Source of the DNA: a plasmid
Sequence record: NZ_CP023785.1
Reading direction: 5' to 3' (one strand)
Length of the DNA stretch: 64,000 nt
A program made the position numbers. This document shows, piece after piece, positions 21,501-27,500 of the stretch; within the stretch, counting starts at the first letter, position 1, and each line of letters opens with the position of its first letter.

Positions 21501-24500
21501 AGACCCTGTTGCTTCACTGGGAGAATATCCTAGTTCAGCTTGTAATGCAAAAATTAATGCTTGATTTGAATTTCTTTGATAAATACCATCACAAGGCATT
21601 ATTCCCGTGTATTCTAAATAATTTACATTTAACCATTGCTGCATTTTTCTAATTTTACTATCTCCGCCGGGAACAAGAACAAAAGCACTCATATCAAATA
21701 ACGCTTTGGCCCATTTCGCATCCAAAACTCCAGTTACAGCGCTTCCATTAAACCCTGCATCAGTCTGCAACTCTTTTACAGCAGTATCTAAATATGGAGT
21801 ATATACCCCATCGAAGCCACCTGGATTAATCCCCTTACACCAAAAGGCACCTTGAATAAGAAATACAATATTTTTAGGTAGATTTTTGCCCCATTTAGGA
21901 GTAACCTGATTATCGTACATTTTTTCAGTGGTAGGTCCAAAATTAGCTACTAGATTAGTAATACCAAGTTCTACTTGTAGTCCTTCAATAAGTCCATAGA
22001 TTGTAGGCCACCCTGTTCGCCCATTTTCTGGAACCTTATCAAACCCTGTAACATTACTGTATTTCTTGTTTAGCCATTTCTGAGTACTTAAAACCATCTC
22101 ATCCATAAAAATCCCCTGCTTTCTTGCCGAACATACGTTCGTTTATGTGTTGATTATATTTTATATTTTAGTGTTTGTCAACAACTAAAAATAATAAAAC
22201 AGCACAAAGAAATCTCTTTGTGCTGTTTTATTAAATATTTTGAACAACATAATACGTACCTGCAACAGGATTATAAGTGTAATAAATACCTATATTCATT
22301 GTCCAACCAGGCCCGTTTGGTGCAAAGTATTTGAATCCTTCACGAGCATACAATGCCATTCCTTGAATAGAACCAGATTTAGTTGCGTTGGCTTGATTTA
22401 CATTTCCTACTCTTCCATCGTCAATGTAGGATTTCCAACGTAAAAAGTTGCCTGTACCATCAGCTGGTTTTACACCCATACCTCCAAAACGCCATCCCGC
22501 ACCACTAAATGGCTGTGATTTATAGCTTCCTCCTCCTGCTAGTACAAGAAGGTGTCCGCTAGTACCAACATCGGGTGGAAATGCTCCTCGAGGCATAATT
22601 GGAGTAGTTTCAATATCATTTTTGAATTTTTCAGCAACAATTTTTTTTGCTTCTGTCACTGAAACTGAAGCAGGATCAGTTTCTGAATTATATGAACCTT
22701 GAATTATATCTGGATTATCCATAGATACAATTTTAGCTTCCCCTTTTAAAAAACCACCTTCTGGCAATGCAAGTACTTTATCTTCTTCTTCAAAATCAGC
22801 AAAGTATCGTGAGGCGTACTGCTCTGGATCTGAAATAACTTCTTTCTCAGCAGCATATACTGCATTTCCAAATGTTAACATCATAAGTAGCCCAACAGAA
22901 ACACCAAAAATCTTTTTCATAATGAATCTTCCTTTACTCTAATTCCACTGAATTAGTTTCTTTTATCTGCTTTAATTCATTTCTTTTACTATTTAAAAGC
23001 TCTTTTAGATCCTTAATCGAAATAGCGTTGGAATCAGTATTAACATCAATAAACTGTCTGTGATTTTGTTTATAACTAACTAATTCGGATTTGCCATCTC
23101 CCATTAATTGCCCACCAGCAGACAAGACAACAATTTTATCTGAGTCACTAATTCCTGGAATACTTTCTTCTAACTGTTCCCCGGATAAATCACCAAATTC
23201 TTTATACAATTCTTCATCTGACATAGAATAGATATTTTTGGTCAAACTCATTTTTTTATTATTATGTTCAGCTACTCTTTGATCTTTTATTTGAGCGTTT
23301 GAATTAACAGAATCTAAATTCAAAAGAAAATAGCCCCCAATTAATATTGTAAATACTGAAAAAATACTTAGTATCGTTTTTTTCACGATTCTCACCTCGC
23401 TTTCTTATTAAATTTATAATATATATCTACGATAAGATAATTGGTTCTGTTGCAAAGTTTTAAATCTACTATCAAATAAGATAGAATAATAGAAAAAGAT
23501 AGCAGGAGGAATAACGATGAATCATTTTAAAGGAAAGCAATTTCAGCAGGATGTGATTATTGTAGCCGTGGGCTACTATCTTCGTTATAACCTTAGCTAT
23601 CGTGAAGTTCAAGAAATCTTATATGATCGTGACATTAACGTTTCTCATACGACGATTTATCGTTGGGTGCAAGAATATGGCAAACTACTCTATCAAATTT
23701 GGAAAAAGAAAAATAAAAAATCCTTTTATTCATGGAAAATGGATGAAACGTACATCAAAATTAAAGGAAAATGGCATTATTTGTATCGAGCCATCGATGC
23801 AGATGGTTTAACCTTGGATATTTGGTTACGTAAAAAACGGGACACACAAGCAGCCTATGCTTTTCTTAAGCGGTTAGTGAAGCAGTTTGATGAACCGAAG
23901 GTTGTAGTCACAGATAAAGCCCCCTCTATTACAAGTGCCTTTAAGAAACTAAAAGAATACGGCTTTTATCAAGGGACAGAACATCGTACCATTAAATACC
24001 TGAATAATTTGATTGAACAAGACCATCGTCCAGTAAAGAGACGCAATAAATTCTATCGAAGTTTACGCACTGCCTCTACCACGATTAAAGGCATGGAAGC
24101 CATTCGAGGATTATATAAGAAAACCCGAAAAGAAGGCACTCTCTTCGGGTTTTCGGTCTGTACTGAAATCAAGGTATTATTGGGAATCCCAGCTTAAATC
24201 ATAGATACCGTAAGGGATTTTATTCTTTATTTAAAACTTTGCAACAGAACCCAAATTTTGTTCCTCCTCAAAGAAAAAGAGACTTTTGGAAAGAATTTCC
24301 AGAGTTCACGTAACCCTAAAAATTCATATCCAAAAATCTCTAGCTTGAAGAAACCTAAAAATATTCGTATAATGAACCTGAGTTACGGAGCTAGGTGAAG
24401 TAGTTTCCGTAAATAGTCGAGAGTGTTAGCGCACTGCTCGGCTTTTATTTTGCTCTTTTTTCTCGTTTTCTTTGATTATAGCACTCCTCCTAAAAAAATA

Positions 24501-27500
24501 AAAAGACCTCAGGGAATTTCATTCCCCGAACCCCTTGAGCCTCCTCCTGCCGAAATGGAAAGGGCGCACCCGCTGTTTATTTCATTCAGCTATCGGCTTT
24601 CACAATCTAACACGATCGTTCCGCTACCAGTCGCCTTACAGGCTCCATTTTCGCTCCTCTAACGTGTTTTAACGATTGTGCCGATAACTAAACGAAATAA
24701 ACGCTAAAACCGCTCAGAACGCAAAATATGCCATTTTAGAGCTATTGTAGAAAATGTAGTTTGAAATGCAATTTTCTTCTTTCAGCTTTTTATTTCCCAC
24801 TTGTAAATCTGCTAATTATTTTCTACCAGACAAACCATTGATTTTTTGGCTATCAGTTAACTCACGATTATTATGAGAAATGCTTGTATTCTTTGTTCCC
24901 TTTTTGAACGAAATACTAAACCCTAAGGTGAACCCCTCCTTCGCGCTGTCGCTAATAAAAAGAGTGTAAACCTTTCTGTTACTCTTTGACAAAGAGTAAC
25001 ATTTTCCTAATTGTGACATGGCTGTCACAATTCCAAACGCTCTCCGAGGGTTTTCGCTGTCACAAGTGACAACGAAAAAAGGAGCCGAAAGCGTGTCACG
25101 CTCTCAACTCCTTTTACGCTTTATTTTGCTTCACGCAAAATAATCGCTTATCTTAAACATTGACGTAAATTTACTCTCACTTATCTGACTTTTTTACTCG
25201 GTATCACTCCGAGTAAGCCGTCATATTCATTGGGATAATCTCGTCTGCTTCGCTCTAATTTTCCAGAGTGAGGGGTAACTCCTTCCCCCGAATTACCCCA
25301 AAGAGTGACACTGGGATATCCCTAAATTTATTATAAAAAGCCAAGTCTCTTTGCGCAACTGTTTTATCCAAGTCGGCATTTGCGGATTCGTTAGCGTTTT
25401 TTCGCTCTTGCTGCAAACGCACGACCCACCATGCCGACTTGTGCTGAAAATAAAAAAGTGGACAAAAATTCATCCACTCATTCTTCCGTCACGTCCAACC
25501 CCAAAAGCCACGTATCCAATTCTTTTTTCAAAACATCTGCCGATTCCGAAAATGTCTCTCGTAAATGATTAACTAACTCATCACTTTGGCTTTCTTTTTT
25601 CAACAAATTTCGATATTTATATTTTGTATGACGAGCCAAGCCAGCCCATAAATTTTGATCTGAAATCAATCCTGCAATCATAATTCTATCAGTATGCTTT
25701 GTATCAGTCGGCAAAAAATGAGGACTTGCGAAACTGTCTAAACTTTCATGAACCATCGCATACCAATCAGTAGCTTTTCCACGCCGTAACTGCAATTCCA
25801 GTCGCCACCAAGTTTTTATTTCCGGTGGTACAATTTTCCGTTTGGTTTCTTGTTCCAATTTTTTGTTGTACATCCTTATTTGTCGCTCACTGGCACGACT
25901 ACCCCAATATGCCGTTTCCAGCTTCCCAGACCGCCCATAGATTGGTTTGAATGAAACAGGGTCAACCACACGATATTGCGTAATAAAATCATCAGGCACA
26001 TCGATAATGTCGCAAGCAATATCAGCACGTGAGAAATGTGGTTCTAAAAATAAATCATGGATAAAGTTCTTCATCGAACCCGCCAAAAATTGGCTAATTT
26101 TATTTGGGTTAAAGTCAATTCGCCCTTGCCCTTCTTGATATTTCAAAATTTCAATGTAAGCAATATTCTCATCATGCTTATCCACAATTTGCCAACCATT
26201 TAGACCAACAGATTTAACATAACCATTATTTTCATTCAGTCGCATTAACTGTTCAAAGTCTAAAATCAATACATCATTTTGCGTGTGATAATAAATATTC
26301 TCTTTGAGTTTTCCAACAATGGTAATTCGGTCAATTGACCACTGTATTTTAAGGGGGGTGGTCAAAGTTTGCACACTTAACCGCCTGTTAGATAGGGCTG
26401 TTAAATTTTCCCACTCATTTATGATCGTGCCACGTTTACTCAAATTTTGGTTCTGTTGCAAAGTTTTAAATCTACTATCAAATAAGATAGAATAATAGAA
26501 AAAGATAGCAGGAGGAATAACGATGAATCATTTTAAAGGAAAGCAATTTCAGCAGGATGTGATTATTGTAGCCGTGGGCTACTATCTTCGTTATAACCTT
26601 AGCTATCGTGAAGTTCAAGAAATCTTATATGATCGTGACATTAACGTTTCTCATACGACGATTTATCGTTGGGTGCAAGAATATGGCAAACTACTCTATC
26701 AAATTTGGAAAAAGAAAAATAAAAAATCCTTTTATTCATGGAAAATGGATGAAACGTACATCAAAATTAAAGGAAAATGGCATTATTTGTATCGAGCCAT
26801 CGATGCAGATGGTTTAACCTTGGATATTTGGTTACGTAAAAAACGGGACACACAAGCAGCCTATGCTTTTCTTAAGCGGTTAGTGAAGCAGTTTGATGAA
26901 CCGAAGGTTGTAGTCACAGATAAAGCCCCCTCTATTACAAGTGCCTTTAAGAAACTAAAAGAATACGGCTTTTATCAAGGGACAGAACATCGTACCATTA
27001 AATACCTGAATAATTTGATTGAACAAGACCATCGTCCAGTAAAGAGACGCAATAAATTCTATCGAAGTTTACGCACTGCCTCTACCACGATTAAAGGCAT
27101 GGAAGCCATTCGAGGATTATATAAGAAAACCCGAAAAGAAGGCACTCTCTTCGGGTTTTCGGTCTGTACTGAAATCAAGGTATTATTGGGAATCCCAGCT
27201 TAAATCATAGATACCGTAAGGGATTTTATTCTTTATTTAAAACTTTGCAACAGAACCATAATAAGTCTCTATTTTTCAATAACTATTGCAAAATTATATC
27301 TTAATTAAGAAAATATTTTTATTTTAAAGATAAAAAATTCTTCATCCTGCAATACTTTATATTCTATATTGTAATTATTCAGAATATTACTTACAATATA
27401 TAAACCTAATCCATTACTATTTTCCTTATTTAAATCAAATTTAACATCAAATATTTTATCCATATTCGAAATTTTATTGTTACCGTATGAATTCTCTATA

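What the first reader, a model, noticed from the sequence alone, without database searches (positions are those of the whole stretch)
24252..26448. Entire small rolling-circle plasmid (Rep_trans/pT181 family) captured between direct IS1216 copies; shared 8-bp CAAATTTT at both inner junctions splits the rep start from its RBS
E|CAAATTTT...CAAATTTT|F with co-oriented, identical IS copies is the expected product when a plasmid already carrying IS1216 cointegrates through that IS. Circularising the body at the shared octamer puts a GAGGAGGA RBS 7 nt upstream of the TTG start of rep, followed by LSKRGTIINEWENL.... In the integrated state the start codon abuts the IS repeat, so the replicon is probably silenced. 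The body also contains a dense palindrome cluster (24960..25100), likely the sso. This is a near-intact cryptic replicon that could be resurrected by IS-mediated excision.
Basis: partly seen in the sequence, partly recalled or inferred. Interest (0 to 1): 0.65.

Follow-up and report, generated by a model that had tools for sequence, protein, structure and literature searches.

The report
Small plasmid captured by IS1216
A complete 2,189-bp cryptic rolling-circle plasmid of Enterococcus faecium has been stitched into a large plasmid by the insertion sequence IS1216, which cut its replication gene off from its promoter and ribosome-binding site; this is a clean example of an already well-known process.

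Summary
Two identical, co-oriented 809-bp IS1216 copies (23443-24251, 26449-27257) bracket 2,197 bp that starts and ends with CAAATTTT. With one octamer removed, the segment is 2,189 bp. It matches free circular E. faecium plasmids (Aus0085_p6 type, rep14/pRI1-like) with 0 mismatches, and there the octamer is single and sits between the RBS and the TTG start of rep.

More than 100 related large plasmids carry one IS1216 of the same sequence variant between the same outer flanks. So the resident IS most likely attacked the small plasmid by IS26-family copy-in cointegration.

Rep is a true Rep_trans initiator with all 13 conserved catalytic-site residues. Its 5' coding region holds a pT181-like nick-site hairpin. 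The leader encodes a covariation-supported antisense RNA. The promoter, leader and RBS now point into the left IS, 2.2 kb from the rep ORF, so rep is almost certainly silent.

One claim fails. Recombination between the IS copies gives a 3,006-bp circle in which rep is still interrupted, so excision would not revive the replicon.

The same kind of event is published (IS1216/pCOLA, IS257/pUB110). This is an ordinary new instance of low to moderate interest.

The parts
23443..24251 (+). IS1216, left copy (transposase ORF 23517-24197; terminal repeats GGTTCTGTTGCAAAGTTT / AAACTTTGCAACAGAACC)
   Evidence: 809 bp, identical to the right copy. Pfam DDE_Tnp_IS240 at 1.5e-41. Annotated 'IS6-like element IS1216 family transposase' in NZ_CP017793.
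24252..24259 (.). Left copy of the 8-bp target-site duplication CAAATTTT. On the rep strand it reads AAAATTTG, so it contains a copy of the TTG start codon.
   Evidence: The octamer is single in the free plasmid.
24252..26448 (-). Complete captured plasmid (2,189 bp plus the 8-bp duplication), Aus0085_p6 type, rep family 14 / pRI1-like. The rep-sense strand is the window's minus strand.
   Evidence: 100% identical free 2,189-bp circles. 0 mismatches to LR135253 after circularisation. Aus0085_p6 is described as a rep-only cryptic plasmid of rep family 14 (PMC3846456).
24262..24269 (-). Orphaned ribosome-binding site GAGGAGGA. It is now followed by TTG plus 6 codons (MGSVAKF*) that run into the left IS.
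24270..24348 (-). Long hairpin in the rep leader, followed by UUUUUCUUU just 5' of the RBS. Candidate attenuator; its base pairs with the SD region.
   Evidence: Leader fold -60.4 kcal/mol, z = -4.3. Alifold on 12 plasmids: 34 pairs, 96% of cells paired, 2 compensatory pairs.
24345..24373 (+). Promoter of the candidate antisense (counter-transcript) RNA: TTGAAG-17-TATAAT
   Evidence: 10 of 12 consensus matches. Both hexamers are invariant in 12 diverse plasmids.
24381..24452 (+). Candidate ctRNA, about 70 nt. SL1 is 24383-24412 with a hypervariable loop. SL2 is 24415-24443, followed by a U tract (terminator). It is complementary to the 5' part of the rep leader.
   Evidence: Fold z = -3.1. 20 pairs, 100% of cells paired, 4 pairs with compensatory changes, slid controls at most 46%. 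The G-U pairs are valid only on the + strand.
24475..24483 (-). Candidate rep promoter, extended -10 (TGCTATAAT on the rep strand). In the integrated state it fires leftward, away from rep.
   Evidence: Read from the sequence. TG-n-TAT(A/T)AT is kept in all 12 aligned plasmids although the flanks diverge. It was below the scan's -35 criterion, so this is an inference.
24575..24702 (.). Long inverted repeat (23-nt arms, 82 nt apart), function unknown. Possibly part of lagging-strand origin or maintenance functions. It is the IS1216 target (CATTCAGC) in an independent capture.
   Evidence: Capture in CP063287.
24960..25143 (-). Palindrome cluster, candidate single-strand origin (sso)
   Evidence: ssDNA fold of 24900-25160: rep-sense strand -56.7 kcal/mol (z = -8.8), opposite strand -49.5. 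95-98% identical in most of 310 matching plasmid records, nearly all Enterococcus, including MOBV-mobilisable 3.8-4.4 kb plasmids.
25478..26443 (-). rep, 321 aa, TTG start. Intact and identical to the free-plasmid gene (WP_002305972.1). Catalytic Tyr192.
   Evidence: Pfam Rep_trans 34.2 bits, cut-off 29.6. PDB 4CWE/4CWC (RepDN/RepDE) E = 2e-25 over residues 103-312. R139 D141 A143 D145 T177 Y179 G181 R190 Y192 K194 E197 R214 E216 match the 13 conserved Rep_trans residues listed in PMC4797284.
26377..26404 (-). Candidate double-strand origin: hairpin TTAACAGCC-CTATCTAACA-GGCGGTTAA inside rep codons about 14-22, with nick-site-like TCTAACAGGCGGTT
   Evidence: 12 of 14 bases match the pT181-type nick region at window 14630-14643. 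Invariant in 11 relatives whose rep DNA is 75-82% identical, and the left arm changes while keeping a hairpin. The pT181 family places the dso inside rep (PMC5703833). Hairpin energy alone is unremarkable.
26441..26448 (.). Right copy of the target-site duplication CAAATTTT. It supplies the TTG start of the rep ORF, which directly abuts the IS terminal repeat.
26449..27257 (+). IS1216, right copy (transposase ORF 26523-27203)

Best explanation
The window comes from a large (about 170-kb class) Enterococcus faecium plasmid that carried one IS1216 between a hypothetical gene and a histidine-kinase gene. That resident IS attacked a co-resident 2,189-bp cryptic rolling-circle plasmid (Aus0085_p6 type, rep14/pRI1-like, Rep_trans family) by the IS26-family copy-in (replicative) reaction.

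The reaction fused the two replicons, duplicated the IS, and duplicated the 8-bp target CAAATTTT. The result is IS1216 | CAAATTTT-plasmid-CAAATTTT | IS1216.

The target lay exactly between the RBS and codon 2 of rep. As a result:
- The rep promoter, the roughly 210-nt leader, the antisense-RNA gene and the RBS sit at the left end. They read into the left IS and now drive only a 7-codon ORF.
- The intact rep ORF, with its embedded candidate origin, sits at the right end. It is flush against the IS terminal repeat and has no promoter or Shine-Dalgarno sequence.

The small replicon is therefore switched off, and the fusion is carried passively by the large plasmid's own replicon.

Shown: the structure, identity to the free plasmid, the single-IS ancestral site, and Rep family membership. 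Inferred: copy-in as the route, silence of rep, and the assignments of promoter, ctRNA, attenuator, dso and sso.
For: Structure: identical direct IS copies plus an inner 8-bp repeat.

Target: the free 2,189-bp circle is 100% identical, with a single octamer linking RBS and start.

Ancestral site: a 2,009-bp construct of left flank + one IS + right flank matches dozens of E. faecium megaplasmids at 100% in one piece, and 136 records at 80% coverage or more.

IS variant: the two flanking copies are identical to each other and to that resident copy. They differ by 4-6 nt from the other full IS1216 copies in the window, and by 3-4 nt from the copies around other captures.

No outer duplication: the outer flanks are AGATAATT and ATAATAAG.

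No free intermediate: no 3,006-bp plasmid::IS form is in PLSDB.

The reaction is established: IS1216 performs copy-in and targeted conservative cointegration experimentally (PMC6952201). The same outcome is published for pCOLA, with an 8-bp duplication inside rep (PMC12711152).

The process recurs. Relatives were captured with perfect 8-bp duplications at four other sites: CATTCAGC, TCCCTGAT, AGCTATGG and CGATATAC. Each body is plasmid length + 8.

Rep is Rep_trans with an intact active site.

Regulatory anatomy. No SD lies upstream of rep in the IS end.
Against: The structure alone cannot separate direct copy-in from a two-step route. In that route the plasmid is captured elsewhere, then an IS+plasmid unit is delivered to the resident IS by the targeted conservative reaction or by homologous recombination.

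Silence of rep is inferred from anatomy, not measured. A weak promoter-like hexamer pair in the IS end (27250-27223, 9 of 12, no more sites than chance gives) could produce antisense read-through toward rep.

The promoter, ctRNA, attenuator, dso and sso assignments rest on sequence, folding and covariation only. The nick-site pattern was written after seeing both sites. The candidate dso hairpin is not more stable than shuffled sequence.
Confidence: 0.88

Rival explanations
1. Two-step acquisition. The small plasmid was first captured by an IS1216 on some other replicon, or existed briefly as a 3,006-bp IS+plasmid circle (translocatable unit). It then entered the resident IS1216 of the large plasmid by the targeted conservative reaction or by RecA-dependent recombination between IS copies.
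For: IS1216 does perform targeted conservative cointegration (PMC6952201; PMC12711152). The final structure would be indistinguishable. The window holds many other IS1216 copies.
Against: Both flanking copies are the resident-site sequence variant, and other copies differ by 3-6 nt. No 3,006-bp form is in PLSDB. Such a circle would have rep uncoupled and could not replicate unaided. This route needs more steps than direct copy-in.
Confidence: 0.1
2. Assembly artefact. A separate small molecule containing IS1216 was joined into the large plasmid at the IS repeat by the assembler.
For: Repeats of 809 bp are classic mis-join points. Reads cannot be inspected here.
Against: The identical structure is present in four separately deposited complete plasmids (CP017793, CP017798, CP017788, OP378674), and a variant in CP096212. 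A mis-join would still need a plasmid::IS molecule carrying the duplication, and none is on record. Five other captures show the same architecture.
Confidence: 0.015
3. The IS-plasmid-IS unit arrived as a classical composite transposon inserted into a site that previously had no IS.
For: The structure superficially resembles a composite transposon.
Against: There is no duplication outside the unit (AGATAATT versus ATAATAAG). The empty site in relatives already contains one IS1216. The duplication lies on the inner side, which is the cointegrate signature.
Confidence: 0.005

Closest known systems
pCOLA integrated in the pRUM-like plasmid pHHEf2 by IS1216 (Microb Genom 2025, PMC12711152)
   Same: A whole small E. 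faecium plasmid lies between direct IS1216 copies. An 8-bp target duplication sits at the inner boundaries, the free circular form is known, the target site disrupts rep, and the event is explained by IS1216 copy-in.
   Different: The captured plasmid differs (3,199-bp pCOLA versus this 2,189-bp rep14 Rep_trans plasmid), and so does the host replicon (25-kb pRUM-like versus about 170-kb plasmid). Here the cut falls precisely between the RBS and the ORF, so rep stays intact but orphaned rather than split.
IS257-flanked co-integrated rolling-circle plasmids in staphylococcal multiresistance plasmids and SCCmec (e.g. pUB110 in pSK41)
   Same: Non-resolved replicative transposition by an IS6/IS26-family element leaves direct IS copies at each junction. 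The replication region of the captured RCR plasmid is disabled or later deleted (review PMC5703833).
   Different: The genus and the IS differ. The captured plasmid here carries no resistance or other cargo gene, so there is no obvious selected benefit.
Aus0085_p6 (CP006626) and other free 2,189-bp E. faecium plasmids; pRI1/pEFNP1 (rep family 14)
   Same: The sequence is identical to the captured body. They are described as cryptic, rep-only plasmids of rep family 14.
   Different: Those are autonomous circles with rep joined to its RBS and leader. The window holds the integrated, uncoupled form.
pT181 family of staphylococcal rolling-circle plasmids (RepC/RepD)
   Same: Shared features: a Rep_trans initiator with the same 13 conserved residues and catalytic Tyr, an origin-like hairpin inside the 5' part of rep, and a counter-transcript against the rep leader plus a terminator-like hairpin just before the RBS.
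   Different: Homology is distant: the Pfam hit covers only part of the domain at 34 bits. The RepD-like_N domain is not detected and BLASTP finds no N-terminal similarity. The strict pT181 nick motif is absent. There is no resistance gene, and the host is Enterococcus.

Membership tests
IS6/IS26-family copy-in cointegrate (pseudo-compound transposon) | Two copies of the same IS in direct orientation bounding the acquired segment | tested here: met
   23443-24251 and 26449-27257 are 809 bp each, identical, and on the same strand.
IS6/IS26-family copy-in cointegrate (pseudo-compound transposon) | 8-bp target-site duplication on the target side of each IS, single copy in the unintegrated target | tested here: met
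   CAAATTTT at 24252-24259 and 26441-26448. It is single in the free plasmid LR135253.
IS6/IS26-family copy-in cointegrate (pseudo-compound transposon) | The donor molecule carried one IS at that place before the event | tested here: met
   Left flank + one IS + right flank matches at 100% in one piece in dozens of E. faecium megaplasmids, and 136 records reach 80% coverage or more. The IS variant is the same.
IS6/IS26-family copy-in cointegrate (pseudo-compound transposon) | IS6-family DDE transposase and terminal inverted repeats | tested here: met
   DDE_Tnp_IS240 at 1.5e-41. The 18-bp ends GGTTCTGTTGCAAAGTTT / AAACTTTGCAACAGAACC are present.
IS6/IS26-family copy-in cointegrate (pseudo-compound transposon) | The event was catalysed by the transposase in replicative mode, rather than by recombination between pre-existing copies | not testable with these tools
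   The structure is the same for both routes. Identity of the IS variants favours copy-in.
Classical composite transposon insertion | Target duplication flanking the whole unit, and an IS-free empty site | tested here: not met
   The outer flanks are AGATAATT and ATAATAAG. The empty site already holds IS1216.
Rep_trans (pT181-family) rolling-circle plasmid | Initiator with the Pfam Rep_trans domain above the curated threshold | tested here: met
   PF02486 at 34.2 bits against a cut-off of 29.6. Only profile positions 53-109 of 201 are matched.
Rep_trans (pT181-family) rolling-circle plasmid | Conserved catalytic-site residues, including the nucleophilic tyrosine | tested here: met
   Aligned to RepDN/RepDE (4CWE/4CWC) at E = 2e-25. 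R139 D141 A143 D145 T177 Y179 G181 R190 Y192 K194 E197 R214 E216 correspond to R140 D142 A144 D146 T176 Y178 G180 R189 Y191 K193 E196 R212 E214.
Rep_trans (pT181-family) rolling-circle plasmid | Double-strand origin (nick-site hairpin) located inside the rep coding region | tested here: inconclusive
   Hairpin 26377-26404 carries TCTAACAGGCGGTT, 12 of 14 identical to the pT181-type nick region at 14630-14643. It is invariant in 11 relatives. Against this, the strict pT181 motif is absent, the hairpin energy is ordinary, and nicking is untested.
Rep_trans (pT181-family) rolling-circle plasmid | Counter-transcript RNA against the rep leader, with a terminator-like attenuator before the RBS | tested here: met
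   Met at sequence level only. The promoter hexamers are invariant. The two-hairpin RNA has 100% of cells paired, 4 compensatory pairs, and slid controls at most 46%. The leader has a hairpin plus U-run. Transcripts were not observed.
Rep_trans (pT181-family) rolling-circle plasmid | Single-strand origin functional on the displaced strand | tested here: inconclusive
   The palindrome cluster has z = -8.8, folds about 7 kcal/mol better on the rep-sense strand, and is conserved at 95-98% in most of the 310 matching plasmid records. The sso type and activity were not determined, and there is no Rfam match.
Rep_trans (pT181-family) rolling-circle plasmid | Autonomous replication as a small circle | tested here: met
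   Nine independent complete 2,189-bp circular records are identical to the body. This holds for the free form, not for the integrated copy.

The most novel reading that the evidence does not exclude
The integrated copy may not be an inert fossil. It keeps an intact, strongly conserved promoter and gene for the antisense control RNA, and an intact candidate origin. Its leader/ctRNA region (24274-24530) is 100% identical to that of many 1,979-1,980-bp plasmid records as well as the 2,189-bp type.

The large plasmid could therefore act in trans as an incompatibility or exclusion determinant against this whole family of small plasmids. Conversely, its origin could be nicked by Rep supplied by an incoming free plasmid.

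A related idea is that only captures which disable rep expression survive. Seven of the 8 captures examined hit rep or its expression signals.
Probability: 0.15. Interest if true: 0.5.

Novelty: new member of a known kind. Interest (0 to 1): 0.25.

Why it matters
This is a textbook-clean record of how IS1216 builds mosaic Enterococcus plasmids. The free target, the single-IS ancestral site and the fused product are all on record at 100% identity, so the event can be reconstructed base by base.

It also shows that cargo-free cryptic plasmids are swept into large plasmids, not only resistance plasmids. A replicon-typing hit inside a megaplasmid (rep14 / rep_cluster_943) can therefore be a dead, captured replicon rather than a working one. 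That matters for plasmid typing and for host-range inference.

It does not reveal a new mechanism.

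Tried and rejected
- Rfam scan of 24200-26500 at E up to 1 gave only sub-threshold chance hits (miRNA models on the leader hairpin, an E. faecalis sRNA model at 25.6 bits against 219). No known ctRNA family matched.
- The strict pT181 nick motif CTACTCTAATAGCC, with up to 3 mismatches, has no hit inside the body. 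A looser pattern was then derived, so its 'expected 0' is not an independent test.
- BLASTP of Rep against the pT181-type N-terminal fragment in the same window found no significant similarity.
- NCBIfam gave no hit for Rep.
- A search for a free 3,006-bp plasmid::IS1216 intermediate found none in PLSDB.
- I asked whether captures preferentially destroy rep expression. Seven of 8 do. But rep plus its signals cover about 60% of the plasmid, so P is about 0.1 (my arithmetic). That is suggestive only and I do not claim it.
- Hybrid promoters from the IS end (TTGCAA as -35) have no usable -10 at the right spacing in front of rep. Any start would in any case lie inside the ORF (sequence reading).
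- A literature search by accession found no paper describing the integrated form.
- The p2189-specific 276 bp (25209-25484) matched nothing informative.

Full report
**1. The observation**

Two 809-bp elements, 23443-24251 and 26449-27257, are identical and co-oriented. Each encodes a 226-aa transposase with an IS6-type DDE domain (DDE_Tnp_IS240, 1.5e-41). Public records annotate it as IS1216.

The sequence between them, 24252-26448, is 2,197 bp and begins and ends with CAAATTTT. The only long ORF, 25478-26443 on the minus strand, starts with the TTG that lies inside the right-hand octamer and directly abuts the IS terminal repeat. At the other end of the segment, the minus strand reads ...GAGGAGGAACAAAATTTG followed by the IS.

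**2. A free form exists, at exactly the predicted size**

A megablast of the segment against 72,556 plasmids found 9 independent, complete 2,189-bp E. faecium plasmids at 100% identity. Examples are Aus0085 p6 (CP006626), LR135253 and CP096226.
- After circularising the window segment at the octamer, it equals LR135253 with 0 mismatches in 2,189.
- Inside that record the junction reads ...CGTTTACT CAAATTTT GTTCCTCCTCAAAG.... The octamer is single, and the RBS sits 6-7 nt before the TTG start.
- PGAP annotates the same 321-aa protein (WP_002305972.1) in the free and the integrated copies.

The Aus0085 genome paper describes p6 as a 2,189-bp plasmid with no gene other than rep, of rep family 14, related to the cryptic plasmid pRI1 (PMC3846456).

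**3. Which molecule carried the IS**

I built a 2,009-bp query of left flank + one IS + right flank, which represents the structure with the plasmid and one IS removed. It matches dozens of large E. faecium plasmids at 100% in a single piece, and 136 records at 80% coverage or more. So the ancestral state is one IS1216 at this place in the large plasmid.

The two copies in the window are identical to that resident copy and to each other. The other full IS1216 copies in the window differ by 4-6 nt. The copies around other captured plasmids differ by 3-4 nt.

Three further points fit:
- There is no duplication outside the unit: the outer flanks are AGATAATT and ATAATAAG.
- The small plasmid's free form has no IS.
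- No 3,006-bp plasmid::IS intermediate is on record.

The simplest account is IS26-family copy-in. The resident IS attacked the small plasmid at CAAATTTT, which fused the replicons and duplicated both the IS and the target. IS1216 has been shown experimentally to form cointegrates by the copy-in and the targeted conservative routes (PMC6952201). A two-step route through a translocatable unit, or through IS-IS recombination, gives the same structure and cannot be excluded. I give it about 0.1.

The identical integrated structure occurs in CP017793, CP017798, CP017788 and OP378674. The window matches these up to 28188 and then differs by an IS256 insertion.

**4. The process is recurrent**

I examined eight IS1216-flanked captures of this plasmid family. 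Five have perfect 8-bp duplications at different sites, with a body length of plasmid + 8:

| Capture | Duplication | Site |
|---|---|---|
| This window | CAAATTTT | between RBS and rep |
| CP063287 | CATTCAGC | non-coding inverted repeat |
| S. aureus VMRSA plasmid NZ_CP092559 | TCCCTGAT | inside rep |
| AP026570 | AGCTATGG | inside rep |
| CP027518 | CGATATAC | inside rep |

The other three lack a duplication and carry deletions or rearrangements that affect rep or its leader. One of these, pUCH1-1 (CP096212), holds the same 2,189-bp plasmid captured independently. There the CAAATTTT junction is intact, but 192 bp covering the leader, the antisense-RNA gene and the promoter -10 are missing.

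Seven of the eight disable rep expression. The rep unit covers about 60% of the plasmid, so this is only suggestive (P about 0.1).

**5. What the captured plasmid is**

*Rep.* It passes the Pfam Rep_trans threshold (34.2 against 29.6 bits, partial coverage). It aligns to the solved staphylococcal initiators RepDN/RepDE (4CWE/4CWC) at E = 2e-25 over residues 103-312. All 13 residues that Carr et al. list as conserved around the catalytic tyrosine are present. These are R139 D141 A143 D145 T177 Y179 G181 R190 Y192 K194 E197 R214 E216.

*Origin.* The pT181 family is unusual in placing its double-strand origin inside rep (PMC5703833). The strict pT181 nick motif is absent from the body. However, rep codons 14-22 contain the hairpin TTAACAGCC-CTATCTAACA-GGCGGTTAA (26377-26404).
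- Its core TCTAACAGGCGGTT shares 12 of 14 bases with the classical nick region in a truncated pT181-type rep fragment elsewhere in the window (14630-14643).
- The core is invariant in 11 relatives whose rep DNA is only 75-82% identical. The left arm changes while preserving a hairpin.

I treat this as the candidate origin. Nicking is untested, and the hairpin's energy is ordinary.

*Copy control.* A near-consensus promoter on the + strand (24345-24373) is followed by two hairpins and a U tract (24383-24452). These lie antisense to the rep leader. In an alignment of 12 diverse plasmids:
- The promoter hexamers are invariant and the first hairpin's loop is hypervariable.
- All 20 predicted pairs are kept in every sequence. 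Four pairs show compensatory changes, and slid controls reach at most 46%.
- The G-U pairs are valid only on the + strand.

The leader itself has a long hairpin with a U-run immediately before the RBS. An extended -10 (TGCTATAAT, 24475-24483 on the minus strand) is conserved upstream. This matches the counter-transcript/attenuator layout described for pT181. No transcripts have been observed, so it remains an inference.

It folds about 7 kcal/mol better on the rep-sense strand. It is 95-98% conserved in most of the 310 matching plasmid records, nearly all from Enterococcus, including MOBV-mobilisable ones. A single-strand origin is a reasonable reading, but it is not shown.

**6. Consequence of the insertion**

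In the integrated state the promoter, leader, antisense-RNA gene and RBS lie at the left end and read into the left IS. The orphaned RBS now precedes a 7-codon ORF, MGSVAKF*. The rep ORF and its candidate origin lie 2.2 kb away at the right end.

The sequence upstream of rep is the IS terminal repeat, which has no Shine-Dalgarno motif. The only promoter-like site pointing that way is a weak 9-of-12 match inside the IS, and such sites are no more frequent there than chance gives. Rep is therefore very probably not made, and the small replicon is off. This fits the long-standing observation that replication regions of co-integrated rolling-circle plasmids end up disabled (PMC5703833).

The integrated copy has no substitutions relative to the free plasmid, so the capture is recent.

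**7.

Recombination between the two IS copies, or loss as a translocatable unit, releases IS + body (3,006 bp) with IS1216 still sitting between the RBS and the start codon. That circle is no more replication-competent than the integrated copy. Restoring the 2,189-bp plasmid needs a deletion across the two 8-bp repeats, which is not an IS26-family reaction.

**8. Comparison with what is known, and verdict**

The same kind of event has been described explicitly:
- IS1216 and the small plasmid pCOLA in pRUM-like plasmids, with an 8-bp duplication inside rep and copy-in proposed (PMC12711152).
- IS257 and small staphylococcal plasmids.
- Integration of rep14 rolling-circle plasmids into larger enterococcal plasmids with truncation of rep (PMC3612099).

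I found no paper describing this particular capture, although it is present in public sequences. This is a correct, well-read observation of an ordinary event: a new member of a known kind.

The one reading with some novelty is that the retained antisense-RNA gene and origin make the large plasmid an incompatibility determinant against the common rep14 small plasmids. This is untested, and I give it about 0.15.

Noticed in passing
window 14443-14712 (-), nick hairpin about 14625-14650; neighbouring ORF 12838-14394 (-): A second rolling-circle plasmid fossil. It is a truncated pT181-family rep N-terminus (Pfam RepD-like_N, 58 bits) that still carries the classical nick-site hairpin AAACCGGCGTACTCTAATAGCCGGTT. 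An IS3-family element cuts it off. The DNA is 75-78% identical to 4.3-4.4-kb staphylococcal plasmids.
   Followed up: partly
L005 (S. aureus VMRSA plasmid NZ_CP092559) 1501-4296; window outer-left flank 23423-23442: The same resident IS1216, with an identical outer-left flank next to the glycoside-hydrolase gene block, captured a different small plasmid in a plasmid now found in vancomycin-resistant MRSA. That plasmid is the 1,979-bp type, and its duplication TCCCTGAT lies inside rep.
   Followed up: partly
L010 (pUCH1-1, NZ_CP096212) 1301-3297: The same 2,189-bp plasmid (100% identical) was captured independently at another site. The CAAATTTT junction is single and intact there. 192 bp (window 24289-24480: leader, antisense-RNA gene, promoter -10) are missing and there is no target duplication.
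   Followed up: partly
window 24274-25208 versus 25485-26448: The plasmid family is mosaic. The non-coding module (leader, antisense RNA, inverted repeats, palindrome cluster) is 95.6-99.4% identical between plasmids whose rep genes are only 75-82% identical. 25209-25484 is specific to the 2,189-bp type.
   Followed up: partly
L011 (CP130830) 2110-4285: An IS1216-flanked copy of a 1,935-bp relative is 2,176 bp long (plasmid + 241 bp). The same 241-bp stretch of rep is present at both ends instead of an 8-bp duplication. It may derive from a plasmid multimer or from two events, and it is unexplained.
   Followed up: no
window 28289-29461 (+) within the histidine-kinase gene (27305-28330 and beyond): An IS256-family (Mutator-type) transposase interrupts the sensor-kinase gene just right of the structure. 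The closest public plasmids (E240 type) lack this insertion, so the window is a derivative not present in PLSDB.
   Followed up: partly
window 5441-6249, 12448-12678, 15977-16407, 16408-17161, 42247-43054, 59775-60583: The 64-kb window holds six further IS1216-like copies or fragments, 77-99.8% identical to the pair studied. This is an IS-saturated accessory region where further IS-mediated rearrangements are likely.
   Followed up: no
window 24475-24483 (-) toward 22231-23395 (-): The orphaned rep promoter points through the left IS, antisense to its transposase, toward two minus-strand genes of unknown function. Any transcripts that escape the leader attenuator could affect the transposase or those genes.
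   Followed up: no
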